This document shows positions 1 to 19,887 of a stretch of DNA of 31,122 nucleotides, one piece after another. Below the pieces are notes generated by a model. The model was not told where the DNA came from. It ran no database searches and worked only from the letters and a program-made list of their open reading frames with translations. Position 1 is the first letter of the stretch, and the number at the start of each line of letters is the position of its first letter. This DNA is from a virus: the IMG/VR virus record IMGVR_UViG_3300045988_093071, positions 1-31,122 of that record. The stretch is one strand, 5' to 3'. A program made the position numbers and the translations under genes.

Positions 1-55
1 CAACTCCTACTTTACAAGAGAAACATATAACAATAGATAAAAACCTATCAATGAC
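1..55. repeat. Terminal overlap: 1-55 is identical to 31068-31122 (circular closure of a 31,067-bp genome)
   Basis: Direct comparison of the first and last 55 nt gives an exact match. An ORF is continuous across the junction. Confidence 0.95.
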
Positions 56-878
56 TGAAGTTAAACCTGATGCTGGCTATCAAGGTTTATCAAGTATTGA
101 AGTAGATGTAGAGATTCCAGTTGAGGAGCATAGAGAAGTTACTATTACAGAGAATGGAACTACAATGATTCATCCTGCAGATGGATATGATTATATGGAG
201 TTTATTGATGTAACTGTTAATGTTACGAATCCAATGAATACCTATGATATTACACAAGCTGTAGTTAATTTATATAGGTTTACGGGAACATCTGTTCCTG
301 CAAATGTTGTAGGTTGAGAAAATTTAGTTGATGGAAGATATAAATGTCAAAGATCAAAAATTAAGGAGTTCACTATGCAATTGCCTAAATTAGAAGATGG
401 CAGATATATGTTTACAGAATGTGCTGATTTAACATCATTCACTATTCCAATGCCTGAATTAACAGATGGGTCTAATATGTTTAGCAGAGGTACCTTATCT
501 GGATATAATAGCCTGAAAACACTTAATTTAGACGCTCCTAAATTAGTAACTACTACTAATATGTTTGGAGATTGCATTAGATTAACAGATGTAACATTAA
601 ACATTCCATCATACACATCTCAAGAAAGTTCAATAAATCCTATATTTTCAAAATGTAGTGGAATTACTAATCTTACAGTAAACGGTGAGCTTAGAGCAGG
701 ATTATATCTATCAGCAAGTACCAATCTTACTACTGATTCTTTAATGTCTGTTATTAATGCATTAGTTGATTTAACAGGGGAGAATAGCAAAACTTTAACA
801 TTAGGAGCTACCAATCTGGCAAAATTATCAGATGAACAGAAAGCAATAGCTACTAATAAAAACTGGATATTAGCATAA
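1..878 (+). CDS. BspA-type leucine-rich-repeat (LRR) virion / receptor-binding protein, copy 1. This is the 3' part of a 395-aa gene that starts at 30758 and crosses the circular junction. In-frame TGA at 315-317 is read as Trp.
   Basis: Track ORFs 51..317 and 375..878 share a frame and are separated only by TGA. The frame is open from nt 1 and continuous with 30758..31122. The read-through peptide ENLVDGRYKCQRSKIKEFT mirrors the next LRR unit PKLEDGRYMFTECADLTSFT. The N-terminal half has four ~36-aa repeats (..P[DA]xGY[DQ]xM..V.V.V). The C-terminal LSDEQKAIATNKNW tail is shared with the paralogs at 3418 and 5230. Confidence 0.8.
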
Positions 879-1099
879 TGGAACATTTACATATTGAGAC
901 TAGCATATTTATAAAGTTATACTCTGATGAAGGATATTTTATCACCTCATATAAAGAAGGTGATGATATTAAAGAGTATAGTGCATCAACTATTTTATAT
1001 TGCCCTTTAACCTTTGATATATCTATTTATAGGGTTATTGATGCAGAAACAAATGAAAGATATTTAAAAGAACAAGAGGAATCTTATAAAAATAAATAA
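878..1099 (+). CDS. 73-aa protein, paralog of 4346..4567 (possible fibre assembly or adaptor factor)
   Basis: ATG overlaps the upstream stop (TAATG). It shares YK..DIK.Y......CPL..D.......I..E.....YKEQ with the 4346 ORF, has the same length, and holds the same position between an LRR gene and a fibre gene. Confidence 0.6.
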   Translation: MEHLHIETSIFIKLYSDEGYFITSYKEGDDIKEYSASTILYCPLTFDISIYRVIDAETNERYLKEQEESYKNK

Positions 1100-1100
1100 T

Positions 1101-3416
1101 ATGGCAAACGAAACTGAAAAGACAATTCTTCCCTATCTTAATGTCCTTGAAGTCGAAACAATAGATAAGTCAAATGTGACTAAAGTTATTGTTATTGACA
1201 AGGATGATGAAGTTAAGGTTATGGATGGTTCTCAGTTAGGAACAAACAGTTATTTTGATATTCAAAATAAGCCTGAAATTAATGGAGTTGAGTTAAATGG
1301 AAGTATGACTTCTGATGAACTTGGAATTCCGTCAGTTGAAGGTGTTGATAATCAGATTACTGAGAAACTAGCTGACTATCCAACTAAAGAAGAGGTAACT
1401 GCAGAGATTACTGAAGCCACTGCTGGAAAGCAAAATACACTTGTTCAAGGTGATGGTATAGTAATTGAAGAGAATACTGTTTCTGCAGATTATAATACTA
1501 TTCGTAACAAACCATCTTTAAATGGAACTGAATTATCTGGAGCAGCTTCAATAGTACCTGCCATTAATATTCAATCAGTCCCATCTAAAGTTACTTTAGC
1601 TCCTGTATTTGGTAATCAAACTGGAGAAGCAGTTGAACTTCCAATATATAATACAGAGACTAATCAAGCTGGTATGGTTAATGGTCCTCTATATGCACAA
1701 TTAACAGATAAATATACCAAAGCTGAAATTGATGCTTTAAATACAGCTATTAATAAAGAGATAGCTTCAAAACAGGAAACGCTTACAGCAGGAAAGAATA
1801 TATCTATTATAGATAATGTAATCTCTGCTTTTGAGAATCATTTCTTACTTAATTTAGATGAGAATGATCCTGTAAGACAGAAACATATCTATGACTTTAT
1901 TAGAACTAATCTGGACTTCTATTTATTCTGCCAGATTACATATAAAGGTGATATTATAGTTATTCCTGTTGCAACTATTGAACATCCTGAAACTATTGAT
2001 TTATATGGTTATTATTTCCAAGATAATGGTGTATTAGTAGTTATTAATGCAATCTTAGTAAATAATGGTAATATGACTGTTAAAGTTACTGAGGTTGATC
2101 TTACTAATAAAGGATATACTAAAGAAGAAGTAGATGCCAAACTTGAGGAAAAACAAGGAGTATTTACTCCACAAGCTCCATTAGCTTTTAATGAAGATAA
2201 ATCCCAATTATCTGTAGATTTATCTGGATACCAACCAGTTGGTGATTATGCTTTAAAGAGTGATATCCCAACTAAAGTTAGTGAGCTTACTAATGATTCT
2301 AACTTTGTAACTGAAGCAGAGGTTTCTGGAGATTTAGCAGGTAAAGCAGATAAGACTTATGTTGATGAGCAGCTTGCTACTAAACAGCCTGTAGGAGATT
2401 ATGCAACAAAAACAGAACTTGCTGGTAAAGCTGATTCTTCTGTGGTAGAATCTTTATCTACTCAAGTAGCAACTAATACTTCAGATATATCAATTATTAA
2501 AACAAAACAAGAAGAAGATGGAGATAAGATTGATTCTCTTGATAAAGAGATGGCTACTAAGCAAGATTTACTTGTAAGTGGAACTAATATCAAAACAATC
2601 AATAGTCAGTCTTTACTTGGAGAAGGTAATATAGAAATTGAAAGTGGCTCTAATATTCCATTTCTATTTATAAATTCCACTACTCATCTTTCTGGAGATT
2701 TCGCTGCTGTTAAGAATGCTATAGCTAATAAAACACCATTTGAGCTTTATTATGTAAATATTCTAGGTTATGGTGATATAGCAGCTCCAGAAGTATGTTT
2801 TGTTTCAGGAGAAAATATTCAAGCTACATTCCATTTTGAATCTGGCACAACTAATCATACTTTAGTTACTGCTCAGATTACTCCAACTGGAGTTTCTGTA
2901 GATAAGAGTTACCATAATTATCAAGAACAATTAGTCTCTGGGACTAATATAAAGACTATTAATGGTGAAAGTATTTTAGGAGAAGGTAATCTTGAAATAT
3001 CTGGTAGTGGAGGGACTACCGATTATACTCAGTTAACAAATAAACCTCAGATTAATTCTGTTGAACTTAGTGGTAATAAGAGTCTTGAGGATTTAGGTAT
3101 ACCAACTAAGACATCTGAGCTTACTAACGATAGCGGCTTTTTAACTTCTATTCCTGATGAATATGTTACAGAAACTGAATTAAATGCAGGATTAGGAAAT
3201 AAACAAGACACTTTAGTTAGCGGAACAAATATTAAGACAGTTAATGGAGAAAGCTTGTTAGGTAGTGGAAATATAGATATTGAGAGTGTTTCTAATCCAG
3301 TTACTTATGGAAGTGGAACTCAACCACAAGTTCATACTATTCTTGTGGTAACTCAGTCTGAATATGATGCTATTTCAAGTAAAGATCCAAATACTCAATA
3401 TTTAATTGTAGAGTAA
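1101..3416 (+). CDS. Long tail fibre (771 aa) with internal repeats
   Basis: Intact ORF. It has three copies of LVSGTNIKT[IV]N[GS][EQ]S[LI]LG[ES]GN[IL].I (about nt 2571-2640, 2931-3000, 3213-3284) and three NKP.[IL]N[GS].EL.G motifs. Fibre-type motifs LSVDLSGYQPVGDYA and SELTNDS[NG]F are present. The protein contains no Trp. Confidence 0.75.
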   Translation: MANETEKTILPYLNVLEVETIDKSNVTKVIVIDKDDEVKVMDGSQLGTNSYFDIQNKPEINGVELNGSMTSDELGIPSVEGVDNQITEKLADYPTKEEVTAEITEATAGKQNTLVQGDGIVIEENTVSADYNTIRNKPSLNGTELSGAASIVPAINIQSVPSKVTLAPVFGNQTGEAVELPIYNTETNQAGMVNGPLYAQLTDKYTKAEIDALNTAINKEIASKQETLTAGKNISIIDNVISAFENHFLLNLDENDPVRQKHIYDFIRTNLDFYLFCQITYKGDIIVIPVATIEHPETIDLYGYYFQDNGVLVVINAILVNNGNMTVKVTEVDLTNKGYTKEEVDAKLEEKQGVFTPQAPLAFNEDKSQLSVDLSGYQPVGDYALKSDIPTKVSELTNDSNFVTEAEVSGDLAGKADKTYVDEQLATKQPVGDYATKTELAGKADSSVVESLSTQVATNTSDISIIKTKQEEDGDKIDSLDKEMATKQDLLVSGTNIKTINSQSLLGEGNIEIESGSNIPFLFINSTTHLSGDFAAVKNAIANKTPFELYYVNILGYGDIAAPEVCFVSGENIQATFHFESGTTNHTLVTAQITPTGVSVDKSYHNYQEQLVSGTNIKTINGESILGEGNLEISGSGGTTDYTQLTNKPQINSVELSGNKSLEDLGIPTKTSELTNDSGFLTSIPDEYVTETELNAGLGNKQDTLVSGTNIKTVNGESLLGSGNIDIESVSNPVTYGSGTQPQVHTILVVTQSEYDAISSKDPNTQYLIVE

Positions 3417-3417
3417 T

Positions 3418-4344
3418 ATGAATATTCGAGATAATTTAAAAGCTTTTTATGTAGGTAACAGACAAGGTACTGCCATATATGTTGGCAGTACCAAAGTCTG
3501 GCCTATTGATCCTTGTAATCCTATAACCTTTATAGACCCAGAATTTGGAAGTCAAGTTAAAATGCATTTATTAGATGATAAACCTGTAACGGATTGTAAT
3601 ATAGACAGTGTAAAAAGCTGATATTATCCAAATTCTTTAAATGATTCTGCATTTACTGGTTCTGCTGTAGTTACTAACGAGGATTATAAAAAATTCAATG
3701 TTCCTGCATCTAATGATGATTATGTGGTATTTATGAGACTTTTTCAAAGTTGCGCCGATTTAACTACATTTGATACTGGAATGGTTGAAGGTGGAGAAGA
3801 TAAATTAGGATTGTTATACAATATGGGCGGTTTTTATTGTACATTACAAGGATGTACTTCATTAACTACTATTATAGGAGATTTTGATGGTTCTAAGATA
3901 TATAATTATAACTGGATGTTTGGAAATTGTAGATCTTTAATTACGGCTCCAAATATAACATTTCCTCATAGGGATTATTTAGTAACTCATACAGTTAATG
4001 TAAGCAGATTATTTGATGGTTGTACTTCATTAACCACCATACCTTTATATGATGCATATTCTTGGGAATATTTAAGTCTTACGTTTAATCGTTTATCTAA
4101 TTTAGAGAATGTTGGAGGGTTTAAAGATATAGGAAAATGCTTTACTACTAACTCCTTTGCTGGATTAAATTTTGAAGATAGCCCAAAGTTAACTAATCAA
4201 TCAGTACAGAATATAATTAATAATTTAGCTATTCCAAGAGAATCACTTGCTGGAGTTATAAAATTTGCAGAGAATGTTTACAATTCATTAACAGAGGAAC
4301 AAAAATCACAAATCACCAGTAAAGGCTGGTCAGTAACATACTAA
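3418..4344 (+). CDS. BspA-type LRR virion / receptor-binding protein, copy 2 (308 aa). In-frame TGA at 3619-3621.
   Basis: Track ORFs 3418..3621 and 3724..4344 share a frame with no TAA/TAG in the linker. LRR units F..C..LTT[IF] recur. The C-terminal YNSLTEEQKSQITSKGW tail matches copies 1 and 3. Confidence 0.8.
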
Positions 4345-4345
4345 T

Positions 4346-4567
4346 ATGAAAGTTGAAATTAAAGAAAAGTATCAAGTAGTTAAGCCTGAAGATAGTATGC
4401 TTCTGACTAACTATAAAGACGAAATGGACATTAAAGGGTATAACTCATTTAAAGAGTGTATTTGTCCATTAGATTGCGATTTAACTCATCTAAGAGAAAT
4501 ATCCCTGGAACAAGACAGGATTTATAAAGAACAAGCTGAGAAGGCTATTGAAGAATCTCTTAAATAA
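4346..4567 (+). CDS. 73-aa protein, paralog of 878..1099
   Basis: Same length, same conserved CPL/YKEQ pattern and same position as 878..1099. Confidence 0.6.
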   Translation: MKVEIKEKYQVVKPEDSMLLTNYKDEMDIKGYNSFKECICPLDCDLTHLREISLEQDRIYKEQAEKAIEESLK

Positions 4568-4574
4568 TAAAACT

Positions 4575-5228
4575 ATGATTATATTAAAGAATACTAAGAA
4601 TACTCAGACCTTCTATGTTAGTAAGAAATGTGGTATTGAGACAGCTCAGCTTCCAGTTGGTTCTTATACAAAGATTGAAGCAGATGCTAGATTTCAACCT
4701 AAAGGTAATTACATTTCTGAAGAGAAAGCAGAAGAGTTAATTGATACTAAAGTAACAGAAAGTATTGAAGATCAAGTTCCCCCTTTAGTAGATCAATCTA
4801 TAGATGCTAAGCTTGTTCCAATTAATACTGAGATTACTAATCTTAAAGGGGAAGTTGAGGAGTTAGAAACTTCTAAGATGGAAGTATTCCAAGCTAATCA
4901 ACCTCTATCTTTACATAGAAATGGAGAAGGTTTGCAACTATCTGTAGATTTAAGTAATTATGCAACTAAAGCAGAAATTCCTGATACTAGTGATTTTGCT
5001 ACTAAAGAAGAGCTTACAGCTGTAGAGAATAAGATTCCTGATGTATCTGGATTAGCTACGAAAGATGAAGTTGCACTTAAAGCAGATAAAAGTGAGTTAT
5101 CAAACTATGTAACTACAGATGCATATAATACAAAGATGACAGAGTTAGATGGAGAAATCTCAGCAATTCAAGCTCAGATTGGTAATATTTCAACTACTCT
5201 TGATACAATTAATGGTGAGGTAATCTAA
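4575..5228 (+). CDS. Short tail fibre (about 217 aa; alternative start at 4548)
   Basis: It shares PL...LSVDLS.Y.....IP and repeated ATK.E[LV] segments with the 771-aa fibre, and has a coiled-coil-like C-terminus. ATG 4575 follows the upstream stop by 7 nt, whereas ATG 4548 would overlap it by 20 nt. Confidence 0.65.
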   Translation: MIILKNTKNTQTFYVSKKCGIETAQLPVGSYTKIEADARFQPKGNYISEEKAEELIDTKVTESIEDQVPPLVDQSIDAKLVPINTEITNLKGEVEELETSKMEVFQANQPLSLHRNGEGLQLSVDLSNYATKAEIPDTSDFATKEELTAVENKIPDVSGLATKDEVALKADKSELSNYVTTDAYNTKMTELDGEISAIQAQIGNISTTLDTINGEVI

Positions 5229-5229
5229 T

Positions 5230-6201
5230 ATGGCAAATACAATTTCTGATAAATTAACGTATCTTGAAGGTACTAAGAGTGCCATTAAAGATGCTATTGT
5301 AGCTAAAGGTGTTGCTGTATCAGATTCCGATACCTTTAGAAGCTATGCAGATAAGATAGGACAGATTTCTGGAGGTGGTGGAGGAAAGGTTAATTTAAAT
5401 GATTATGGATTAACATTTGCATATTCTAGTATGACACAAGAGCAATATAATAATATAGAATATTCTCTTCCAGATAATATAAATCATTGATTTGATGGGA
5501 CTAATTTCATATCTACAATAGATATATCAAGTCATATTGATCTGTCTAAAGTATATGACGCATCATATGCCTTCCAAAACACATATAATATATATATTGA
5601 TAATATAAGAACTAATGTTGGGGATTCGTACACATTTTCTGGATTTCAAGGCATACTAAATAATTTAGAATTAATTAATACCTTATCCTCTAGTTGAAAT
5701 TATGCAACAAGAACATTCTTTAATGCTTCTAATTTACCAACTACTTTAAAAGTGATAAATGAAGTTGATACTGGTGTATCATCTTTACAATTTTTCTTTT
5801 ATGCTGTTAGCAGTAATGTTCCTGAAATTGAAGTTATTAATGGACAACTGTCTTTATATAATTACTTTAGTTCATATAATGAGGGTGTTACAACAGTAGG
5901 AAAAATTAAATTAAATAATTGCACATTAACAGAAGATCTAAATAAAACTTCAATATGTGTATCTGCTAATACTATTGTTACTTATTTTGGGGGTGTTGAA
6001 GGAGCTGATAAAAGTATGAATTTAGCAAATTTTAGAGCACTAAATAGTCAATCAGTAACTGATATTATTACAAATGTTAGTGATTTAACTGGAAAGGATA
6101 CCAAAACTTTAACTTTTTATACTAACGTTTATAATGCACTTACTGAGGAACAGAAATCATTAGCTGCATCTAAAAACTGAACTTTAGCAAGTTCAAACTA
6201 A
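5230..6201 (+). CDS. BspA-type LRR virion / receptor-binding protein, copy 3 (323 aa). In-frame TGAs at 5488, 5695 and 6178.
   Basis: Track ORFs 5230..5490 and 5752..6180 share a frame and the linker has no TAA/TAG. The true stop is TAA at 6199-6201. The N-terminus KLTYLEGTKSAIKDAIVAKGV..DTFRSYADKI is typical of gut-phage fibre-like proteins. The C-terminal YNALTEEQKSLAASKNW tail matches copies 1 and 2. Confidence 0.8.
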
Positions 6202-6202
6202 T

Positions 6203-6252
6203 TGTCAGTTTTTATTTTTTCTTAGTACTTTGAGTGAGTAAAAAACTTGACA
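6203..6252. repeat. 50-nt palindromic element, copy D (TGTCAGTTTTT ... AAAAACTTGACA)
   Basis: It starts 1 nt after the stop codon. It has the same 50-nt length and architecture as the copies at 14164, 19289 and 27872. Both arms carry the same changes relative to the other copies (TGTAAC becomes TGTCA(A)G). Confidence 0.8.
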
Positions 6253-6278
6253 TTAAAGGAGGCTTAGGTCTCCTTTAA
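6253..6278 (+). terminator. Intrinsic terminator hairpin
   Basis: TTAAAGGAG-gcttaggt-CTCCTTTAA is a 9-bp stem followed by a T-rich tract (ttattttaat). It ends the fibre/LRR operon. Confidence 0.7.
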
Positions 6279-6354
6279 TTATTTTAATACATTAGTAAAT
6301 TAGTTTATATTTTAAGAAAAAGATATGTAAAACTAATGTAAATTGCTGTAAAAT

Positions 6355-6747
6355 ATGAATTATACTCTATTAATGCAAAATACAACTACTAAAGAAGTTT
6401 ATACATTTGATCTTGAAAATCAGAATTATTCTGAGAATATCTACTATAAGTTTGATATTACACTTCAAGAAGGAATGAGAGACGGTGAATATCAATATAT
6501 TTTATTTACTAATCCAAATAAATTTCAAGTTATAGTTGATGTAAACAATCCATTTAGATCAGAGTTATATGGCAATCCAGTTATTCTGGTTACATATAAT
6601 AATACTCTTACTAATGGTACTCAGATATTAGTTGCTGGTAAACCAATACCTATATTGGGAACAGGATTAATAAGAATTGGAGATTATGAGAATAATAATT
6701 ATCAATACGACAAACCTAATACATACGTAAGTTATGAGCGAAAATAA
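6355..6747 (+). CDS. Hypothetical protein (130 aa)
   Basis: Intact ORF and first gene after the terminator. I recognised no motif. Confidence 0.5.
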   Translation: MNYTLLMQNTTTKEVYTFDLENQNYSENIYYKFDITLQEGMRDGEYQYILFTNPNKFQVIVDVNNPFRSELYGNPVILVTYNNTLTNGTQILVAGKPIPILGTGLIRIGDYENNNYQYDKPNTYVSYERK

Positions 6748-7825
6748 AACAAAAGTTCAGTTAAGTGCTATTGATCCATTTATTGCAAGTAATATCGTAT
6801 TACCTACAGAAACTAAAGTAAGAGGAAAAGATTATGTAATGTGAGGAGAAGATAATAAATATCCATTATATCTATGGGATCTATATTTAAATGTAGCTAC
6901 TCTTCAATCTATCATTAATGGTACTGCTGACTTTATTGTTGGTAACGATGTTAAATGTAATGCTCCAGGATTTGAAGTAGTTGTAAACAAGAAAGGTGAG
7001 ACTATTATGGATATTATGCGTAAAGTATCTAAAGATAAGATGATTTTTGGAGGATATGCTTTACAAATAATTAGAGATATGTTAGGTAGAGTTTCAGAGA
7101 TCTATCATCTTGACTTTATGAAGATTCGTTCTGATGAAAAGAATGAAGTATTCTATTATGCTGATGATTGGTCTGCTTGGTCTATTAAAGCTATCAAATA
7201 TCCAAAATTTAATTATTCAGATGATAATCCTACAAGTGTTGTTTATAATAAGGGTTATATAACAAGAAAAGTATATCCAGTCCCTGTTTATGGTGCAGCT
7301 ATCCTATCTTGCGAAACTGAGAAGAATATTAATGAGTTCCATCTAAATTCTCTTCATAATGGATTTATGGGCAATCTTATCATTAACTTTAATAATGGAC
7401 AGCCTACAGACGAAGTTAAAGAAGAGATTGAGATGAATATCAATGAGAAGTTCTCTGGTTATCAGAATGCTGGTAGAGTTCTTATTTCATATAATGATGA
7501 TGAAACAAATAAGACTACTATTGAGCGTTTAGATTCTGATGATTTTGATGAGAAATATAGTGCTTTATCTGATAGGACAAGAGAACAGATATTCTGCGCA
7601 TTTAGAGCTAATAGTGTACTTTTTGGCCTTAACTACTCAAGTGGATTCAACGAACAAGAATTTAATGAAGCTTTTAAACTTTATAATCGTACAGTAGTTA
7701 GACCAATTCAGGTCGAAATAGTAGATACATTTGATAAGATATTTGGAATGAAAGGTTCAATAACTATAACTCCTTTTAGCTTAACTCCAAATGGACAAGA
7801 AGATAGCAAACAAAATGTTGAATAA
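6734..7825 (+). CDS. Portal protein, PBSX/P2-like size class (363 aa). In-frame TGA at 6842-6844.
   Basis: ATG 6734 is in frame with track ORF 7007..7825. The N-terminal ..KYPLYLWDLYLNVATLQSIINGTADFIVGNDV.. resembles the conserved N-terminal block of PBSX-family portals. The family call is from memory. Confidence 0.6.
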
Positions 7826-8423
7826 TTATACTGTTTATTGCCATATAAATAAGTATAACAATAAGCTATATTTTGGCATTACTGGACAAAGTGTGCAAGC
7901 TAGGTGAAAAAATGGATATGGATACTCTACTCAAGCTTACTTTTATAAAGCGATACAAAAATATAGCTGAGATGGATTTGAACATATCATAATTAAAGAT
8001 AATTTACCAGAAGCTTGTGCTAAGACATTAGAAAGGATATTGATACATAAATATAAAACAAATACTCCTGAAAATGGTTACAATATAACATCAGGAGGAG
8101 AAGGTACATACGGGTATTCTTTTTCTAATGAGAGTAGAGCAAAAATGTCAAATTCTAAAAAAGGTAAAACACCCTGGAATAAAGGAAAGAAAGGAATCTA
8201 TACTTTGGAAACACTTATTAAAATTGGAAATGCTTCCAAAGGACGAATTACTAGAGTTAAGCCTATATTAAGATTTGATATGAATGGGAATTTTATTGCA
8301 AGATATAATTCAATGAAAGAAGCTGTTAAATCAGTTAATGGAGAACGTTCTGGATTATATTTAGCTTTAAAAGAAAATAGACCTTATAAAAACAATAAAT
8401 TTATTTATGATGGAACAACTTAA
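7815..8423 (+). CDS. Free-standing GIY-YIG homing endonuclease 1 (202 aa). In-frame TGAs at 7905 and 7968.
   Basis: It reads MLNNYTVYCHINKYNNKLYFGITGQSVQARWKNGYGY...KYSWDGFEH...NITSGGEG, followed by NUMOD3-like SxExRxKxS/GKxPWNKGKK repeats and a C-terminal DNA-binding-like tail. The start overlaps the portal stop by 11 nt. Confidence 0.85.
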
Positions 8424-9096
8424 CTATAGAAATGTACTGCTTATTTCAGAAGACTATATAAAGTCAAATTCTACATTAGATAACAATATATCGGGTAAAT
8501 ATTTACAAGCAGCCATCACAAGTGCTCAAGATGTAGAACTTCAGTCAACTATTGGTACTAAGCTATTGGAAGCATTACAAAAGAAATGTATTAATTGGAT
8601 TGATCCTCATACTCCAGTTCATCCAATAGAGCCTCCTGAGCCACTTCCAAGTGATTCTATTGATGATTCTGATAACTACAGATATAAAGAGCTATTAGAC
8701 TATTATGTTCAGCCTTATTTACTTTATCAAGTACTTAGTGAGATAGTAATTCCTATATCTTATAAGCTTGGTAATTTTGGAGTTATGAGAACTGATGATG
8801 AGAAGGATATTGCTGCTGAAGCAAGTCAAGTAAATCAAATTAAGAAGTATTATAGAGATAAGGCGGATTTCTTTAAGACTCGTTTACAGGACTTTATAAT
8901 TACATATTATAATGAATTCCCTGAGCTTTATACATATAAGCCATTAAAGGATATGTTTCCCAATCTTTATTCTAGCTCATCTTGCAATATCTGGCTTGGT
9001 GGTGCAAGAGGTAAAGGATGGAGCATTAAACCTGGAGAGGGACCTCTTCAAAGAGCTTATGATTTCCCTTCAAGTAATAATAAAAAGAGTAAGTAA
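8407..9096 (+). CDS. Hypothetical virion protein, possible head-tail connector or adaptor (229 aa)
   Basis: It lies next to the portal region. The N-terminal I..DYI...S.L..NI....L..AI..AQ...L...LG..L pattern resembles gp6-like connector proteins. This is weak evidence. Confidence 0.35.
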   Translation: MMEQLNYRNVLLISEDYIKSNSTLDNNISGKYLQAAITSAQDVELQSTIGTKLLEALQKKCINWIDPHTPVHPIEPPEPLPSDSIDDSDNYRYKELLDYYVQPYLLYQVLSEIVIPISYKLGNFGVMRTDDEKDIAAEASQVNQIKKYYRDKADFFKTRLQDFIITYYNEFPELYTYKPLKDMFPNLYSSSSCNIWLGGARGKGWSIKPGEGPLQRAYDFPSSNNKKSK

Positions 9097-9098
9097 TT

Positions 9099-9524
9099 AT
9101 GACCTACTATGAGATAATTAGCAATTTAAAAGCTTGTGCATTAGAAGAGCCAAACATCAATTTTGTAGGAAGTAAAGACATTTATGAGTTAAATAGCTTA
9201 CCAACTATTGAGTATAATGTGTTCTATATAACACCTAATACTTTTAGTGTAGATGAAGATACTATTACTTACTCTTTAAACCTATACTTCGTATCAAGAT
9301 GGGATGAGACTGATAACAACCAATTGGAGGAACAGTCAGCAGGTATGCTTGCACTGCAAAATATAATTAATCGTTTTAATAACCTATATCCAGAAGTTGA
9401 AATAGCTTATCCTTTAATTTATACTCCATTCTATCAAAAGTTCAAAGATATTACCTGTGGAGTGTTTGTTAGAGCTGATTTCCAAGTTGACAACACATTA
9501 GGCTTATGTCAAGACAGTATGTAG
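9099..9524 (+). CDS. Hypothetical virion protein (141 aa)
   Basis: Intact ORF ending in TAG, tightly coupled to the upstream gene. Confidence 0.45.
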   Translation: MTYYEIISNLKACALEEPNINFVGSKDIYELNSLPTIEYNVFYITPNTFSVDEDTITYSLNLYFVSRWDETDNNQLEEQSAGMLALQNIINRFNNLYPEVEIAYPLIYTPFYQKFKDITCGVFVRADFQVDNTLGLCQDSM

Positions 9525-10090
9525 TTTATATTCATACTTTTCCAAATGGGAAAAGATATGTTGGATTGACTACTCAATCAGTAAATAGTAGATGAAGAGG
9601 TGGAGAAGGATATAAAGATCAATTTGTTTATAAACCAATTAAAAAGTACGGTTGAAACAATATTAAACACACTATTTATTATGTAAATAGTGAATCAGAA
9701 ATGAAATATCTTGAAAAATACTTCTTTAGCTATTATAATACTACAGATTTAAGATTTGGTTATAATAGAACTGACACAAGTAATCATCCTATAGTTTCTA
9801 ATGAAACTAAAGTTATTATTTCTGAATTTGCTAAAACTAGAATAGGAAATAAAAATCCATTTTATGGTAAGCATCATTCGGAAGAAACTAAGGAATTAAT
9901 ACGCAAGAAAAATCAAAACTATGGAACTAAAGCTATTAGTCAATACACTTTAGATGGAAGATTTATAAAATCTTATAAAAGTATAAGATCAGCAGCAAGA
10001 GAGTTAAACATAACTTCTTCTTTAATATCTTCAGTTTTAAGTGGTAGGCAAAAACAAACTAAAGGATATACCTTTAAGTATAATATGTAA
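9506..10090 (+). CDS. Free-standing GIY-YIG homing endonuclease 2 (194 aa). In-frame TGAs at 9593 and 9653.
   Basis: It reads MSRQYVVYIHTFPNGKRYVGLTTQSVNSRWRGGEGY...KKYGWNNIKH, followed by NUMOD3-like repeats and a C-terminal AARELNITSSLISSVLSG helix-turn-helix. The start overlaps the upstream gene by 19 nt. Confidence 0.85.
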
Positions 10091-10746
10091 TGGAAAATAA
10101 ATTAAACTGGTTTGGAAAGGTATTAGAATGAGTAGATAAATATGGATTACTAAAGATATTTAAAGCAGGGATTGGATTAATATTTATATCCTATGTAATG
10201 GTTATTACACTTAATCCCTCTATTGTTTATAATAAGGTTGTAACCTATATTGAACAAACTCACAATTCTAAAACTATTGCAAGAAATGAAGCAACTTTGA
10301 AGATTAAATATAAGCTTAAAGAATTGCTTCAAAGTACCAATGCTGATAGAGCTTGGGTTATTGAATATCATAATGGAACTACTGGATTAGGAGGACTTCC
10401 ATTTACTTATGGAGTAATGAATGCAGAGGAAGTAAAACCAGGAATAAGATCTGTAAGTAGCCATTATAAAGACTTCCTGTTATCTGACTATACTTCAATT
10501 ATAGAGTTTTCTAAGAATGATGGATGGTTTGGTAATATAGATAGTTTAGAAGCAGATGATCCAAGATTATATTATGCATTTAAATCCAACAGAGTGAATG
10601 AAATAGCAGTATTTTATTTAAAGACTGAGGATAAAGATATTGGCATTTTAGGTTTATCATTCTGTGATACACCTATGCCTTATGATACTTGAGTACATCT
10701 AAGAAGAGCTGGAATACAGATAAGTATAATTTTAAATAAAATATAA
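10090..10746 (+). CDS. Membrane-anchored protein of unknown function at the head of the lysis cassette (218 aa). In-frame TGAs at 10129 and 10690.
   Basis: ATG 10090 (TAATG overlap) is in frame with track ORF 10198..10692. There is an N-terminal TM segment (GIGLIFISYVMVITL). The true stop is TAA at 10744-10746. Confidence 0.6.
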
Positions 10747-10747
10747 T

Positions 10748-10909
10748 ATGAAATATTGGTTAAAATATGTAATTGCAGTAGTTATTATTCTGCTGATATG
10801 TTTACTAATCAAAGTAATTCCTTTTTGGATTACTGTAGTATTACTTGTAATAGGTGTGGCTTCACATCTATTTTATAGATATGTTATGATTAAAGATATA
10901 CTTAAATAA
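10748..10909 (+). CDS. Holin candidate (53 aa, two TM helices)
   Basis: It reads MKYWLKYVIAVVIILLICLLIKVIPFWITVVLLVIGVASHLFYRYVMIKDILK. It lies immediately upstream of, and overlaps (TAATG), the endolysin gene. It is below the ORF-track size cutoff. Confidence 0.55.
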   Translation: MKYWLKYVIAVVIILLICLLIKVIPFWITVVLLVIGVASHLFYRYVMIKDILK

Positions 10910-11361
10910 TGAAGTATTTCACACTCGAAGAATTAACAAGATCTGATACTGCTTCAATTAAGCATATAGATAACACTCCAGATGAGAGTATAACAGAGCA
11001 CCTGATAGAGTTGGTCGAGAAGCTTTTAGACCCAATAAGAGAGAGATGGGCAAAGTATTGTGATGACAATCAGCTTGGCAATGCAGGCATCAGGATTTCC
11101 TCTGGTTTTAGGAATAAGGAGCTTAATAAAGCAGTGGGAGGATCTTCAACTTCTGCTCATTTAACAGGGTATGCAGCAGATATATCTCCAATTAATGGTA
11201 ATATGAAAGTATTCCAAAGTTGGATTGCTGAAGCTATCGAAGAATTTGATTTCGACCAGTTGATATATGAAAGGCCTAGGAATGGTATAGCTAGTTGAAT
11301 ACACTTGGGATTAAAGAATAAAGACGGGATGCAAAGACGACAGAAATTTACTATTATATAA
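10909..11361 (+). CDS. Endolysin, peptidase M15 (zinc D-Ala-D-Ala carboxypeptidase-like) family (150 aa). In-frame TGA at 11296.
   Basis: It reads ..SSGFRNKELNKAVGGSSTSAHLTGYAADI..FDQLIYE.. and then, past the TGA, ..SWIHLGL.. This supplies the C-terminal W-x-H strand typical of this family. Confidence 0.85.
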
Positions 11362-11363
11362 TT

Positions 11364-11933
11364 ATGTTTTACTATTGTTATAAAATTTATTTAACTGCTG
11401 GCTCATTGAGAGGAAAATATTACATTGGTAAGCGTATTTATAAAGGAAAAGACCCATATAAAGATCCATATAAAGGTTCTGGTAAAATTATTAAGAACTA
11501 CTATAAAAGATTTCCTAATGCATATAAAAAAGAAATAATTGCATTCTGTAATGATTCAGATGAATTATCTAAAAAGGAGTATGAATTAATAGGAGATAAA
11601 TGGGAAGTAGATCCAATGTGTTTAAACTTGAAGCCAGGAGGAGAAGGAGGCAATTACGGAGTCAAATTTAATTCTGAATGAAAGAAGAAACTGTCTAATT
11701 CTAATAAGGGAAAGAAACATAATTGCCCAGAATCTTGAAGAGTTAAAGTAGATGCTCATAACAAACAAAGATGTCGTAAAGTAGCTCAGTATGATTTAGA
11801 TGGTAATTTTATTCAAGAGTATGAAAGTTGCACAGAAGCAGCCAAATCTGTAGGAACTGATAGAGGAGCTATTAGTAGAGTATGTGGTGGATTAGCAAAT
11901 ACAGCTAAAGGATTCAAGTGAAGATATGTTTAA
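11364..11933 (+). CDS. Free-standing GIY-YIG homing endonuclease 3 (189 aa). In-frame TGAs at 11679, 11736 and 11919.
   Basis: It reads YCYKIYLTAGSLRGKYYIGKR...GSGK...E...NLKPGGEGG, then WKKKLSNSNKGKKH repeats and a C-terminal AAKSVGTDRGAISRVCGG helix-turn-helix. Confidence 0.8.
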
Positions 11934-11943
11934 TAAAAAAGAA

Positions 11944-11969
11944 AAGGAGGGCAAATAACCCTCCTTTTT
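11944..11969. terminator. Bidirectional intrinsic terminator between convergent operons
   Basis: AAGGAGGG-caaataa-CCCTCCTT is flanked by an A-run upstream and a T-run downstream. Confidence 0.8.
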
Positions 11970-11971
11970 GT

Positions 11972-12112
11972 TTATTCCATTATCTCAAATAATTTCTCAT
12001 CTTTAGGTATTAATTCTCCAGTTTGTAAATCTACTAAGAATTTACTATTTTCAGGAATTACATAAACGTAATTTATTCCATTTAAGCATAATTTATATGT
12101 AAAGTACTTCAT
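11972..12112 (-). CDS. Micro-ORF (46 aa), hypothetical
   Basis: It reads MKYFTYKLCLNGINYVYVIPENSKFLVDLQTGELIPKDEKLFEIME. It abuts the terminator and is the last gene of the leftward operon. Confidence 0.4.
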   Translation of the reverse strand: MKYFTYKLCLNGINYVYVIPENSKFLVDLQTGELIPKDEKLFEIME

Positions 12113-12113
12113 A

Positions 12114-12248
12114 TTAGTCAATATATGTTGCGTTAGGAATCTCTGGTTTTTCTTCTACTTCTTCCCAAACTAACCCTTTGTTTTGGTTTTCTAATTGAAC
12201 TATTCTATATTCTAGTTCTTTAAGCTTTTTAAATAAAAAATCATCCAT
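12114..12248 (-). CDS. Micro-ORF (44 aa), hypothetical coiled-coil peptide
   Basis: It reads MDDFLFKKLKELEYRIVQLENQNKGLVWEEVEEKPEIPNATYID. It is packed with 1-2 nt spacers to its neighbours. Confidence 0.4.
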   Translation of the reverse strand: MDDFLFKKLKELEYRIVQLENQNKGLVWEEVEEKPEIPNATYID

Positions 12249-12250
12249 AA

Positions 12251-12463
12251 TTAATCAAATTTTGAAATAAATGTAAAATCTCTTTGTGCTAATACTCTAT
12301 CTATAATATCTCCTAATTTCTTAGAATTCTCTTTAAATTCATTCATTCACTTATCAAACTCTTTAATAGTATCTTCTGACTTTTTAAGAGTTTCTTTAAT
12401 ATCCGCAATTCTATTTAAATATGAATCTTGGTCTAATAATAATGTATCCTTTGCTTCTAACAT
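12251..12463 (-). CDS. Small ORF (70 aa), hypothetical. In-frame TGA (plus-strand tca at 12347-12349).
   Basis: It reads MLEAKDTLLLDQDSYLNRIADIKETLKKSEDTIKEFDKWMNEFKENSKKLGDIIDRVLAQRDFTFISKFD. The start overlaps the helicase 3' end. Confidence 0.4.
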
Positions 12464-14129: not shown

Positions 14130-14163
14130 AATAGTAATTTTTAATAAGTTAATAAATTTTATA

Positions 14164-14213
14164 TGTAACTTTTTTTATTTATCTTACTACAAAATATTAG
14201 TAAAAAAGTTACA
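14164..14213. repeat. 50-nt palindromic element, copy A (TGTAACTTTTTT ... AAAAAAGTTACA, 12-bp perfect stem)
   Basis: It lies 35 nt upstream of the helicase ATG, inside the predicted helicase leader. The architecture matches the other three copies. Confidence 0.8.
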
Positions 14214-14231
14214 GTAAAGGTTAAAATTAAA

Positions 14232-14248
14232 CTGGGAATTAATCCCAG
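14232..14248. promoter_or_regulatory. GC-rich hairpin CTGGGA-attaa-TCCCAG with T/A-rich flanks (possible attenuator in the helicase leader)
   Basis: Perfect 6-bp stem. On the minus strand it is followed by TTTAATTTTAA. Confidence 0.45.
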
Positions 14249-14287
14249 CTCAATTTTCAATATGGAAGTAGTTTTAGTTTGATAGTA

Positions 14288-14319
14288 CAAAGATAATACA
14301 TAAAATTTCAATTTCCAAA
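14288..14319 (-). promoter_or_regulatory. Bacteroidota-type promoter P-left-1 (TTTG-N20-TATCTTTG on the minus strand)
   Basis: On the plus strand, CAAAGATA at 14288-14295 and CAAA at 14316-14319 are separated by exactly 20 nt. This matches the -33 TTTG / -7 TAnnTTTG consensus. Confidence 0.6.
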
Positions 14320-14376
14320 TATTTTTGCAATTATTTTTAATAAATTTTTTATTTATTATCTCTTACTTTCATAGTA

Positions 14377-14408
14377 CAAATATACAACATTATTTTTAAA
14401 TCTCCAAA
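14377..14408 (-). promoter_or_regulatory. Bacteroidota-type promoter P-left-2 (TTTG-N20-TATATTTG on the minus strand)
   Basis: On the plus strand, CAAATATA at 14377-14384 and CAAA at 14405-14408 have a 20-nt spacer. It lies 89 bp from P-left-1 within an imperfect direct repeat. Confidence 0.6.
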
Positions 14409-14456
14409 TATTTTTATGAAAAATTTTAAATTTTTTTTGAAAAAGTTGTTAAAAAA

Positions 14457-14488
14457 TTTGGAGATTGGATAAAAATGTATTATCTTTG
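14457..14488 (+). promoter_or_regulatory. Bacteroidota-type promoter P-right (TTTG-N20-TATCTTTG) for the rightward early operon
   Basis: TTTG at 14457-14460 and TATCTTTG at 14481-14488 have a 20-nt spacer, 46 nt upstream of ATG 14534. Its -33 context ATTTGGAGA is the inverted copy of the one in P-left-2. Confidence 0.65.
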
Positions 14489-14533
14489 TATTACAATAAA
14501 AGACATAATATTAACAATTAAACTTTATAAATT

Positions 14534-14773
14534 ATGAAAAATATATTTAAATATGCAATTATTGCAACGATTATTTTAATGGGAATAGCTGGTATTAGAG
14601 TATATAATGCTTATGGAGACTACCAAACTAAAACATTTGAGCTTAGATTAGAACAGGCAGAACTCCAGCATAAATTAGACTCTGTAATGTGGCATAATCC
14701 TGGAAGTTCAGAAGTATCTGAATTATATGAACAGTATTGTGATGTAACCTTAAAAATTCATAATGTAAGATAA
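14534..14773 (+). CDS. Small membrane protein (79 aa), hypothetical early gene
   Basis: Intact ORF with an N-terminal TM segment (YAIIATIILMGIAGI). Confidence 0.5.
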   Translation: MKNIFKYAIIATIILMGIAGIRVYNAYGDYQTKTFELRLEQAELQHKLDSVMWHNPGSSEVSELYEQYCDVTLKIHNVR

Positions 14774-16538: not shown

Positions 16539-16560
16539 AAATAATATATTTTAAATAAAA

Positions 16561-19287: not shown

Positions 19288-19288
19288 C

Positions 19289-19366: not shown

Positions 19367-19405
19367 TATAGCTACTAATATTCAGAACAATATATTTTAT
19401 AAAAA

Positions 19406-19885: not shown

Positions 19886-19887
19886 AA

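What the first reader, a model, noticed from the sequence alone, without database searches (positions are those of the whole stretch)
1..6201. Triplicated receptor-binding arsenal: LRR protein, 73-aa protein and fibre, then the same trio again, then a third LRR protein
The cassettes are as follows.
- Cassette 1: 30758..878 (LRR), 878..1099 (73 aa), 1101..3416 (fibre).
- Cassette 2: 3418..4344 (LRR), 4346..4567 (73 aa), 4575..5228 (fibre).
- A third LRR gene at 5230..6201.
The three LRR proteins share BspA-type units (F..C..LT[ST][FI]) and a near-identical C-terminal tail (L[ST][DE]EQK.....K.W). Their N-terminal attachment domains are completely different: four P-x-G-Y-D repeats, a KAFYVGNRQGTAIYVGSTKVW module, and a KLTYLEGTKSAIKDAIVAKGV module with a GGGGG linker.
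The two 73-aa proteins align along their length (YK..DIK.Y......CPL..D...YKEQ). The two fibres share the PL...LSVDLS.Y core.
About 20% of a 31-kb genome is spent on paralogous adhesin-like modules. This suggests multivalent or alternative host recognition. LRR domains rather than classic beta-helical or knob receptor-binding proteins appear to act as the distal binders, with a dedicated small partner protein. I cannot assign this arrangement to a described system.
Basis: partly seen in the sequence, partly recalled or inferred. Interest (0 to 1): 0.7.

Follow-up and report, generated by a model that had tools for sequence, protein, structure and literature searches.

The report
Swappable LRR adhesins on phage fibres
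A 31-kb human-gut phage that reads TGA as tryptophan devotes a fifth of its genome to three leucine-rich-repeat-type adhesin genes, two fibre genes and two copies of an orphan 73-aa gene. Related phages swap the adhesin bodies like cassettes, which suggests an uncharacterised way for phages to recognise what they bind.

Summary
The genes are real, at the stated coordinates, but only if TGA is read as Trp (code 4). Under the standard code, LRR1, LRR2 and LRR3 are each broken by in-frame TGA codons. Paralogy is significant: the LRR C-tails at E~1e-8, S1/S2 at E~1e-8, the F1/F2 cores at E~1e-5.

LRR1 is a confident BspA/DUF285-type LRR by model and fold search. LRR2 is homologous to it. For LRR3 only the last ~110 residues are demonstrably of this family.

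About 40 related contigs show three things.
- The block is an insertion between p174 and the portal. It is absent in distant relatives.
- LRR1+S1 is an optional unit, missing in 9 of 23 genomes.
- Each LRR slot keeps a conserved N-terminal handle and C-terminal cap, while the body between them is replaced outright. DNA breakpoints are sharp, and capsid genes stay 90-100% identical.

S always follows an LRR gene. It has a confident fold with no known relative. The shared tail is the cap of a large LRR subfamily (5,643 clusters). Some members carry collagen shaft and LRR on one chain.

The better grouping is [LRR1-S1], [F1-LRR2-S2], [F2-LRR3]. These are most likely virion-displayed, exchangeable adsorption adhesins. 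Virion incorporation, attachment site, host and ligand remain untested.

The parts
30683..30712 (+). Terminator-like hairpin (12-bp stem, 6 GC pairs, T-rich tail) between p174 and LRR1. It marks the upstream boundary of the block.
   Evidence: In relatives that lack LRR1-S1, DNA similarity runs exactly up to 30758.
30758..31122 (+). LRR1, 5' part (the gene wraps the circular contig; 31068-31122 duplicates 1-55). It holds a conserved N-terminal handle and the first P-x-G-Y-D beta-hairpin repeats.
1..878 (+). LRR1, 3' part (395 aa in all, one in-frame TGA=Trp at 315). It holds the remaining P-x-G-Y-D repeats, a DUF285/BspA-type LRR body (about residues 205-345) and a helical C-cap (residues 346-395).
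878..1099 (+). S1, an orphan 73-aa protein. Its start overlaps the LRR1 stop by 1 nt. Predicted fold: five beta strands plus a C-terminal helix.
1101..3416 (+). F1, a 771-aa fibre-like protein with repeated NKP.INGVEL.G and LVSGTNIKTING units, a coiled segment, and a C-terminal Pfam 'Phage tail tip domain' (PF24243, residues 746-770).
3418..4344 (+). LRR2, 308 aa (TGA=Trp at 3619). It has a conserved N-terminal handle of about 30 residues (KAFYVGNRQGTAIYVGSTKVW), an exchangeable body (about 3505-4270) and a shared C-cap.
4346..4567 (+). S2, the 73-aa paralogue of S1.
4575..5228 (+). F2, a 217-aa coiled-coil fibre-like protein. It shares the ..PL..LSVDLS.Y.. core with F1 and ends in ..IGNISTTLDTINGEVI.
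5230..6201 (+). LRR3, 323 aa (TGA=Trp at 5488, 5695 and 6178). It has a conserved N-terminal module (KLTYLEGTKSAIKDAIVAKGV...GGGGG), an exchangeable body of unproven fold (about 5434-6080) and a shared C-cap.
6252..6279 (+). Terminator-like hairpin (12-bp stem) after LRR3. It marks the downstream boundary of the block. DNA similarity to relatives resumes at 6279.
30150..30674 (+). p174, a conserved 174-aa protein after the major capsid gene and the upstream neighbour of the block in every clade. Its function is unassigned. It is context, not part of the arsenal.
6355..6747 (+). A conserved 130-aa protein that overlaps the portal start and is the downstream neighbour of the block. It is context.

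Best explanation
The seven genes form one late operon. It sits between two terminator-like hairpins, and intergenic spacing is -1 to 7 nt. It encodes virion-displayed adhesins built on a modular plan.

Each LRR protein has three parts:
- a slot-specific N-terminal handle that fixes where it is mounted;
- a solenoid body that binds the target;
- a common helical C-cap.

LRR1 carries its own stalk of P-x-G-Y-D beta-hairpin repeats, and relatives vary in repeat number. LRR2 and LRR3 are most likely mounted on the distal ends of the conserved fibres encoded just upstream of each (F1 then LRR2, F2 then LRR3). A particle would therefore display up to three different binding heads.

Across the phage population the bodies are replaced wholesale, by homologous recombination within the conserved handle and cap sequences. 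This changes binding specificity without touching the rest of the virion.

The 73-aa S protein, always translated right after an LRR gene, most likely acts as an assembly factor or adaptor for that LRR protein.

The block is optional in part and absent in distant relatives that keep the 734-aa and 1149-aa tail proteins. So I read it as accessory adsorption fibres (reversible first contact and host-range tuning), not as the essential infection device.

Shown: gene structure, paralogy, the LRR fold of LRR1, the cassette-like replacement pattern, S-LRR synteny, and single-chain collagen-LRR relatives.
Inferred: virion incorporation, the F-to-LRR docking, the role of S, and the ligand.
For: - Code-4 gene models and tight spacing. 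Bracketing hairpins at 30683-30712 and 6252-6279, with none inside on the + strand.
- The block lies in the structural region: scaffold, MCP, p174, then the block, then the portal.
- LRR1 model: pLDDT 82.9 overall and above 90 for residues 190-395. PDB neighbours are all LRR proteins, including the gut-bacterial BspA-type 4h09, 4gt6 and 4fs7. BFVD neighbours are 'BspA family leucine-rich repeat surface protein' and 'Tail protein' entries of uncultured gut phages, at E 2e-8 to 1e-4.
- Across 23-27 related genomes, MCP, p174 and protease stay 90-100% identical. LRR1, LRR2 and LRR3 range over 48-100%, 31-96% and 37-98%, each independently of the others.
- Per-column identity is 0.77-0.96 in the N-handles and 0.6-0.95 in the caps, but 0.26-0.46 in the bodies. 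F1 is 0.84, F2 0.80 and MCP 0.93.
- DNA breakpoints fall at about 3505/4270 (LRR2), 5433/6081 (LRR3) and 346/735 (LRR1). The LRR1-S1 indel spans exactly 30758..1081.
- There is no cross-slot exchange.
- LRR3-slot alleles include true LRR_5 bodies (E 2.7e-7).
- The tail profile finds 5,643 cluster representatives. Of 88 sampled, 36 hit LRR_5, 27 DUF285, 2 Collagen and 2 Phage_fiber_rpt, with no other kind of globular domain. P0351 and P0275 have collagen triple helix, LRR and the same tail on one chain.
- L032 has a collagen-like fibre ending ..IGNINNVLSEING, followed by an LRR with the LRR3-type N-module. This parallels F2 followed by LRR3.
- L016 has an in-frame F2(1-44)-LRR3 fusion.
- S follows an LRR gene in the window (twice) and in L031, L032, L036-L043, L038 and L045.
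- None of the N-termini shows a signal-peptide-like hydrophobic stretch (read directly).
Against: - There is no direct evidence that any of these proteins is in the virion.
- The block lies among head genes, not next to the large tail proteins (19888-25543).
- p174 could not be assigned, so attachment to the tail is not established.
- F1 and F2 have no detectable relatives among GenBank phages or solved structures beyond weak coiled-coil hits. The Pfam support for F1 is one 25-residue motif.
- Foldseek E-values against PDB are weak (0.04 or worse) because the model has several domains.
- The window's own LRR3 body shows no LRR signal.
- The only cultured-phage hit to the LRR body is a 184-aa hypothetical protein among small genes of Vibrio phage HNL01, not in a tail module.
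- Co-variation of S2 with LRR2 (0.57-0.63) is no stronger than with F2 (0.61), so it does not tell which neighbour S serves.
- The F2-LRR3 fusion is seen on one contig only.
Confidence: 0.55

Rival explanations
1. These are head or neck fibres used for adhesion to the environment. The fibres and LRR proteins decorate the capsid or collar (in the way of phi29 gp8.5 head fibres, T4 Hoc or T4 fibritin). They bind mucus or other gut-surface glycans or proteins, or give non-specific first contact, rather than determining the bacterial host.
For: - The block is inserted between MCP-p174 and the portal, among head genes.
- It is absent in distant relatives that keep the 1149-aa protein and the head genes.
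- LRR1-S1 is dispensable in 9 of 23 genomes.
- The 734-aa tail-region protein has a weak BACON-like hit, and a sister clade's 1302-aa protein likewise, so glycan binding for infection may reside there.
- From general knowledge, not tested here: cellular BspA-family proteins are adhesins for host matrix.
Against: - Wholesale, slot-specific replacement of the bodies among near-identical genomes fits a variable bacterial target better than a conserved host mucin.
- F1 ends in a Pfam 'Phage tail tip domain'.
- Relatives carry 'Phage tail fiber repeats', and BFVD neighbours are named tail proteins. These are annotation-level hints only.
Confidence: 0.2
2. The LRR proteins are non-structural accessory (moron-like) proteins made late in infection and released at lysis or kept in the cell. 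They might modulate the bacterial surface, block superinfection, or interact with the animal host. S would be their cofactor, and only F1 and F2 would be virion fibres.
For: - BspA/DUF285 proteins are typically cellular surface proteins, and the tail family is very large and not phage-specific.
- The one cultured-phage homologue lies among small non-structural-looking genes.
- LRR1-S1 is optional.
Against: - There are no signal peptides or membrane anchors.
- Each LRR gene is translationally coupled to the fibre genes inside one terminator-bounded operon.
- The slot-specific conserved N-terminal handles have no obvious role in a free protein.
- Relatives fuse a collagen or fibre shaft to the LRR on one chain, and L016 fuses the F2 N-terminus to LRR3.
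Confidence: 0.1
3. S is the small adaptor through which the next gene's product is mounted (S1 for F1, S2 for F2).
For: - In the window each S immediately precedes a fibre gene.
- S2 identity correlates with the F2 N-terminus (0.61) as well as it does with LRR2.
Against: - In 9 of 23 genomes F1 is present without S1.
- In L031 and L045, S follows the LRR gene and is followed by an endolysin or an unrelated 243-aa gene, with no fibre.
- In L032, S is followed by a 79-aa gene and then another LRR.
Confidence: 0.1

Closest known systems
Multi-RBP ('branched') receptor-binding systems of tailed phages, such as the four tailspikes of CBA120-like phages, G7C gp63.1/gp66 and the K1-5/SP6 adaptor systems (from general knowledge)
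   Same: - Several different binding proteins are encoded side by side.
- Each has a conserved N-terminal attachment module and a variable binding part.
- The binding parts are exchanged horizontally among otherwise near-identical genomes.
   Different: - The binding parts here are BspA/DUF285-type LRR solenoids (or, for LRR3, an unknown fold) closed by a conserved C-cap. They are not beta-helical depolymerases or knobs.
- Variation is bounded on both sides (N-handle and C-cap).
- There is an orphan 73-aa partner gene.
- No sequence or fold relationship to those systems was found.
T-even long tail fibre with a separately encoded distal adhesin or chaperone (gp37 with gp38), and lambda/Mu/P2 fibre plus Tfa-type assembly proteins (from general knowledge)
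   Same: - A fibre gene is followed by a separate gene for a distal or assembly protein.
- A small gene is translationally coupled directly downstream of the binding-protein gene.
- The variable region is flanked by conserved segments that allow recombination.
   Different: - S has no sequence or fold similarity to any known family (no Pfam hit above noise; Foldseek best E 0.38).
- S is missing after the last LRR gene.
- The adhesin fold is different.
BspA-family / DUF285 leucine-rich-repeat surface proteins of bacteria (Pfam PF13306, PF03382), and the database entries 'BspA family leucine-rich repeat surface protein' in uncultured gut phages
   Same: - They share the repeat type and fold.
- They share the same C-terminal helical cap.
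   Different: - The window proteins fall below Pfam's gathering scores.
- They lack secretion signals and cell-wall or membrane anchors.
- Instead they have phage-type N-terminal modules and lie in a late structural operon.
- I found no functional study of the phage-encoded members.
Variable lymphocyte receptors of jawless vertebrates (an analogy only, from general knowledge)
   Same: Binding diversity is generated by replacing LRR modules between an invariant N-terminal part and an invariant C-terminal cap.
   Different: - Here the replacement happens by recombination between phage genomes in a population, not by somatic assembly.
- No homology is implied.

Membership tests
BspA-type LRR (Pfam LRR_5 PF13306 / DUF285 PF03382, LRR clan) | Profile match at or above Pfam's gathering score | tested here: not met
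   LRR1: LRR_5 at 21.1 bits against a cutoff of 27.7. LRR2: DUF285 at 15.1 bits against 25. LRR3: nothing. Close homologues and other alleles do pass or score strongly: LRR_5/DUF285 on P0015, P0027, P0029 and others, LRR3-slot alleles at E 2.7e-7, and tail-bearing relatives down to E 1e-44.
BspA-type LRR (Pfam LRR_5 PF13306 / DUF285 PF03382, LRR clan) | Tandem repeats of about 22-26 residues with the (M)F..C..L.. consensus | tested here: inconclusive
   With a repeat-unit HMM built from L032: LRR1 has 4 units, 39 bits against a shuffle maximum of 2.1, and lag-23 periodicity at p 0.016. LRR2 scores 4.0 bits, which is not significant. LRR3 scores 0 bits, with periodicity p 0.26 and no self-repeat.
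BspA-type LRR (Pfam LRR_5 PF13306 / DUF285 PF03382, LRR clan) | Solenoid LRR fold | tested here: met
   This was tested for LRR1 only, through P0001 (99% identical). The AF2 model has pLDDT above 90 for residues 190-395. The best PDB neighbours are LRR proteins, though at E 0.04-0.3. The BFVD neighbours are BspA-family LRR proteins at E 2e-8 to 1e-4.
Phage tail fibre / receptor-binding protein | Component of the virion, located on the tail | not testable with these tools
   Only indirect evidence exists: the late structural operon, F1 carrying PF24243 'Phage tail tip domain' at 38.7 bits against a cutoff of 23.7, and relatives carrying Collagen and sub-threshold Phage_fiber_rpt.
Phage tail fibre / receptor-binding protein | Conserved attachment module plus a variable, horizontally exchanged binding module | tested here: met
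Phage tail fibre / receptor-binding protein | Binds a host surface receptor and determines host range | not testable with these tools
   The host is unknown. The MAG labels (Bacteroidaceae; 'Azospirillum sp. CAG:239') belong to contigs with only 48% MCP identity. The BACON hits are weak.
Tail fibre assembly / chaperone proteins (Tfa, gp38-like), considered for S | Gene immediately downstream of the binding-protein gene | tested here: met
   Found in every context examined.
Tail fibre assembly / chaperone proteins (Tfa, gp38-like), considered for S | Sequence or fold similarity to a known chaperone family | tested here: not met
   There is no Pfam or PHROG family above noise. The model has pLDDT 94.1, yet the best PDB Foldseek match is E 0.38 with TM 0.33. 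The family has only 64 members, all in this phage group.
TGA-to-Trp recoded (code 4) phages | In-frame TGA at conserved Trp positions, with TGA never used as a stop | tested here: met
   TGA/TGG interchange is seen in 62 cases. In the 34 + strand genes Trp is encoded 32 times by TGA and 74 times by TGG. Stop codons are TAA 31, TAG 3 and TGA 0.
TGA-to-Trp recoded (code 4) phages | Phage-encoded suppressor tRNA or another recoding device | tested here: not met
   ARAGORN finds no tRNA and Rfam finds nothing. Borges et al. report that only about 35% of code-4 phage genomes have a detectable suppressor (10.1101/2021.08.26.457843).

The most novel reading that the evidence does not exclude
A widespread group of human-gut phages uses leucine-rich-repeat solenoids as its receptor-binding heads. 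This fold has no experimentally characterised phage receptor-binding protein that I know of or could find. The heads are mounted at up to three distinct positions, one on its own stalk and two on fibres. They are diversified by population-level cassette replacement between an invariant N-handle and an invariant C-cap, with help from a structurally novel 73-aa assembly factor. Because the same capped LRR module occurs in thousands of protein clusters, many of them annotated in uncultured phages, this could be a major unrecognised class of phage host-recognition proteins.
Probability: 0.4. Interest if true: 0.75.

Novelty: new variant of a known kind. Interest (0 to 1): 0.55.

Why it matters
Host range is the main unknown for most gut phages, and prediction tools look for known receptor-binding folds.

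If capped BspA/DUF285-type LRR modules are phage adhesins, thousands of 'BspA family surface protein' or 'hypothetical' genes in viromes become candidate host-range determinants. The sharply bounded cassettes would also be natural units for engineering specificity.

The clade shows a practical problem too. Because it reads TGA as Trp, public gene calls truncate these very genes; LRR3 appears as an 86-aa fragment in dozens of records. Such systems are therefore systematically missed.

The S protein is a confident new small fold with a clear genomic partner, which makes it a tractable target for co-folding or pull-down experiments.

Tried and rejected
- GenBank phage searches. blastn with the whole block found nothing. 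tblastn with F1 and with the LRR2 and LRR3 N-terminal modules found nothing. TerL's best hit was 28% identical. LRR1 hit only a 184-aa hypothetical protein of Vibrio phage HNL01, in an uninformative context.
- Host identification. The genome-contig scan with MCP gave two binned phage contigs at 48% identity, with conflicting MAG labels. A ribosomal L2 gene next to phage genes on L042 looked like a prophage junction but is an assembly chimera: GC is 58% against 38.5%, and the junction lies inside both genes.
- The last large-database search, with the LRR3 N-terminal module, returned only truncated 86-aa gene calls from the same clade.
- Co-variation, tried as a way to decide whether S goes with the LRR or with the fibre, showed only distance-dependent linkage.
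- Cross-slot exchange of LRR bodies was not seen; the best cross-slot identity is about 31%.
- Several approaches tried to show that the LRR3 body is LRR: a repeat-unit HMM, hydrophobic autocorrelation, self-HHalign, and HHalign against the true-LRR_5 allele group. All were negative.
- p174 could not be assigned from Pfam, PHROGs (a family of unknown function only), or PDB by sequence and by profile. NCBIfam gave nothing useful for the LRR and fibre proteins.
- I first took the shared tail for a phage-specific docking motif. I rejected that after the exhaustive search showed it is a general C-cap.
- Three literature searches found no paper on LRR/BspA phage adhesins.


Full report
**What is in the sequence.**
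- The window is a complete circular contig. Its last 55 nt repeat its first 55 nt, so the unique length is 31,067 nt.
- Read with TGA as Trp they become intact genes, and the whole + strand becomes a dense gene array.
- The reassignment is well supported. Among orthologous genes of related contigs, TGA is replaced by TGG 43 times and TGG by TGA 19 times, never by a glycine codon.
- The 34 + strand genes use TGA for 32 of 106 Trp codons and never as a stop.
- The TGA at 6178 sits on the conserved Trp of the tail shared by the three paralogues.
- The phage encodes no tRNA and no Rfam family.
- The code-4 gene models are:

| Gene | Coordinates | Length |
|---|---|---|
| LRR1 | 30758..878 | 395 aa |
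| S1 | 878..1099 | 73 aa |
| F1 | 1101..3416 | 771 aa |
| LRR2 | 3418..4344 | 308 aa |
| S2 | 4346..4567 | 73 aa |
| F2 | 4575..5228 | 217 aa |
| LRR3 | 5230..6201 | 323 aa |

- Gene junctions run from a 1-nt overlap to a 7-nt gap.
- The block covers 6,511 nt, 21% of the genome.
- Two strong terminator-like hairpins bracket it, at 30683-30712 and 6252-6279. There is none inside on the + strand.

**Is the paralogy real?** Yes. In a database of eight sequences the pairwise results are as follows.
- The LRR tails match at E 3e-8 and 2.5e-8.
- LRR1 and LRR2 align over 197 residues at E 9e-7.
- S1 and S2 are 36% identical (phmmer E 8e-9).
- The F1 and F2 cores are 33% identical (E 3e-5).

**Is it LRR?**
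- LRR1: yes. Pfam LRR_5 is below threshold (E 3e-4). However, 628 homologues exist and several carry LRR_5/DUF285 hits. A repeat-unit HMM finds four units, 39 bits against a shuffle maximum of 2.1.
  - The AlphaFold2 model of P0001 (99% identical) has pLDDT above 90 for residues 190-395.
  - Its PDB neighbours are all LRR proteins, including the gut-bacterial BspA-type 4h09, 4gt6 and 4fs7. E-values are weak, 0.04 or worse, for a multidomain query.
  - Its neighbours among predicted viral structures are 'BspA family leucine-rich repeat surface protein' and 'Tail protein' entries of uncultured gut phages, at E 2e-8 to 1e-4.
- LRR2: LRR by homology to LRR1, plus weak DUF285 and PHROG hits.
- LRR3: the label holds only for the last ~110 residues (HHalign 99.3% against the LRR1 family). 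Its body has no Pfam hit, no repeat-unit hit, no significant periodicity and no internal repeat.
  - Other alleles in the same slot are true LRR_5 (E 2.7e-7). They are not detectably related to the window-type body (HHalign 0.4%).

**What kind of phage is it?**
- It has TerL, portal, an S78-type protease, scaffold, a major capsid protein, a tape-measure-like protein, an M15 endolysin, three GIY-YIG homing endonucleases and one HNH endonuclease.
- It has no close relative among GenBank phages.
- Related contigs come from human-gut metagenomes.
- The endolysin implies a host with a cell wall. The host was not identified.

**Comparative anatomy.** I compared 30 loci from the same clade and three sister clades.
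1. The order p174, [LRR1-S1], F1, LRR2, S2, F2, LRR3, 130-aa gene, portal is conserved.
2. Of 23 genomes spanning the region, 11 have the full set and 9 lack exactly LRR1+S1. The DNA breakpoints of that indel are the LRR1 start codon (30758) and position 1081, 18 nt before the S1 stop.
3. Distant relatives (MCP 48% identical) have MCP, a p174-like gene, a small gene and the portal, with nothing in between. The block is therefore an insertion into a conserved backbone.
4. Capsid, protease and p174 stay 90-100% identical. The LRR proteins range from about 31% to 100%, each slot independently of the others.
5. Within each LRR protein the N-terminal handle and the C-terminal cap are conserved (0.77-0.96 and 0.6-0.95). 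The body is essentially unrelated between alleles (0.26-0.46). The fibres are conserved at 0.80-0.84.
6. DNA similarity stops and resumes sharply inside the handles: about 3505/4270 for LRR2, 5433/6081 for LRR3, and 346/735 for LRR1.
7. Bodies are not exchanged between slots.

This is cassette replacement by recombination in conserved flanks, the pattern typical of receptor-binding proteins.

**How the parts go together.**
- LRR1+S1 behaves as one unit while F1 stays.
- A 25-kb sister clade and a 28-kb one have p174, one LRR1-type protein with more P-x-G-Y-D repeats, then S, with no fibre.
- A 39.5-kb clade has p174, then a collagen-like fibre ending ..IGNINNVLSEING. Next comes an LRR with the LRR3-type N-module, then S, a 79-aa gene and a P-x-G-Y-D-type LRR. 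That fibre end and N-module parallel F2 (..IGNISTTLDTINGEVI) followed by LRR3 in the window.
- One contig (L016) has an in-frame fusion of F2 residues 1-44 to LRR3 from residue 27, with the shaft deleted.
- An exhaustive profile search with the shared tail found 5,643 cluster representatives. Of 88 sampled, 36 hit LRR_5, 27 DUF285, 2 Collagen and 2 Phage_fiber_rpt, and none had another kind of globular domain.
- Two of these have a collagen triple helix, an LRR and the same tail on one chain.
- So the tail is the C-cap of a large LRR subfamily, and 'fibre shaft with a distal capped LRR head' exists as a single polypeptide elsewhere.
- I therefore group the genes as [LRR1-S1], [F1-LRR2-S2], [F2-LRR3].

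**The S protein.**
- The family has 64 members, all 68-92 aa apart from a few 41-58-aa fragments and one 120-aa sequence. Wherever the context was examined they lie in this group of phages, and none has a Pfam domain.
- The model is very confident (pLDDT 94.1): five strands plus a C-terminal helix. It has no meaningful PDB neighbour (best E 0.38, TM 0.33).
- S lies directly downstream of an LRR/DUF285 gene in every context examined. It is absent after the last LRR gene of a genome.
- It is far rarer than the capped LRR family. It is therefore not a general requirement for folding such proteins.
- An assembly-factor or adaptor role for the preceding LRR protein is the best guess, with low confidence.

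**Mechanism proposed, and its rivals.**
- Best reading (confidence 0.55): virion-displayed, exchangeable adhesins. One sits on its own beta-hairpin stalk and two sit on fibres. They give up to three binding specificities and are retuned by cassette replacement. They most likely serve as accessory adsorption fibres.
- Rival 1 (0.2): head or neck fibres for adhesion to the environment. The position among head genes and the dispensability of the block favour this.
- Rival 2 (0.1): non-structural LRR proteins. The absence of signal peptides, the coupling to fibre genes, the conserved handles and the fused relatives argue against this.
- Rival 3 (0.1): S serves the downstream fibre. Genomes with F1 but no S1, and genomes with S but no fibre, argue against this.
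- Virion incorporation, attachment site, host and ligand could not be tested here.

**Novelty.**
- Multi-RBP systems with modular exchange are well known.
- Database entries already call similar phage proteins 'BspA family LRR surface protein'.
- I found no paper treating LRR proteins as phage receptor-binding or fibre-tip proteins, no solved relative of F1, F2 or S, and no description of this arrangement.
- I rate it a new variant of a known kind. Interest is moderate to high, limited by the lack of any direct evidence for virion location or binding.

Noticed in passing
whole window; TGA at 315, 3619, 5488, 5695, 6178 and in most + strand genes: The phage reads TGA as Trp (code 4). TGA and TGG interchange among relatives. 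In the 34 + strand genes Trp is encoded 32 times by TGA and 74 times by TGG, and no gene ends in TGA. The phage has no suppressor tRNA of its own. The minus-strand genes have no in-frame TGA, including a 572-aa P-loop/DEYH helicase-like gene at 12411..14129. This fits the published pattern in which early and replication genes of recoded phages stay in standard code.
   Followed up: partly
window 31068-31122 and 1-55: A 55-nt terminal direct overlap shows a circular (or circularly permuted) complete genome of 31,067 nt. Gene LRR1 spans the junction.
   Followed up: yes
window 7791..8423, 9506..10090, 11364..11933 (GIY-YIG) and 15197..15688 (HNH); L001/L002 between F2 and LRR3; L016 between LRR3 and the 130-aa gene; L045 between MCP and p174: There are many homing endonuclease genes for a 31-kb genome. 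In relatives, extra HNH or GIY-YIG genes sit immediately beside LRR3 or p174. Homing-associated gene conversion could help drive the cassette exchange.
   Followed up: no
one search hits (P0185-P0237); window 5230..5487: Public gene calls for LRR3 in dozens of contigs are 86-aa fragments ending at the TGA at 5488. They include GenBank TPA entries such as 'Siphoviridae sp. ctuCR5'. The clade is systematically mis-annotated because the wrong code was used.
   Followed up: partly
L016 7888..8910 (IMGVR_UViG_3300045988_065179): A natural in-frame fusion joins F2 residues 1-44 to LRR3 from residue 27 (junction ..RFQPKG|VAVSDSD..), with the F2 shaft deleted. It is seen on one contig only.
   Followed up: yes
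L032 about 7760..8610: A 39.5-kb sister clade has a collagen-like (G-P-x repeat) fibre gene directly after p174. It is partly masked by N in the record. An LRR with the LRR3-type N-terminal module follows it.
   Followed up: partly
L039 19019..20149 and L041 9029..10159 (minus strand): A sister clade that carries the same LRR-S module encodes a tyrosine integrase, so it is probably temperate. The window genome shows no integrase.
   Followed up: no
L042 1..1400: A ribosomal protein L4/L2 fragment (58% GC; its best PDB matches are Bacillus-type uL2) is joined to phage DNA (38.5% GC), with the junction inside both genes. This is a chimeric metagenome assembly, not a prophage junction.
   Followed up: yes
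window 19888..22092 (734 aa), 22094..25543 (1149 aa), 25546..27861 (771 aa): Three large proteins lie upstream of the protease. The 771-aa one resembles tape-measure proteins. The 734-aa one has a weak BACON-like hit (E 1.8e-3), and a sister clade's 1302-aa protein likewise. By eye, the 1149-aa protein ends in what looks like a carboxypeptidase-regulatory-like domain. The gene order is unusual for a siphovirus, with the tape-measure-like gene directly before protease, scaffold and MCP. The morphotype is unresolved.
   Followed up: partly
proteins P0238, P0239, P0242, P0245 and others: The ~40-residue helical core of the LRR cap (..LT.EQK....K.W) recurs 8-18 times in tandem in giant (900-2,600 aa) surface proteins. 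Those proteins also carry FctA isopeptide, choline-binding, MBG and fn3 domains. This could be a separate repeat family or a compositional resemblance.
   Followed up: partly
window 1101..3416 (F1 residues about 660-720): F1 is highly conserved among relatives except for one stretch of about 60 residues, where pairwise identity is 0.13-0.32. Allele lengths range from 711 to 870 aa. This probably reflects copy-number changes in the LVSGTNIKTING / NKP.INGVEL repeat units.
   Followed up: no
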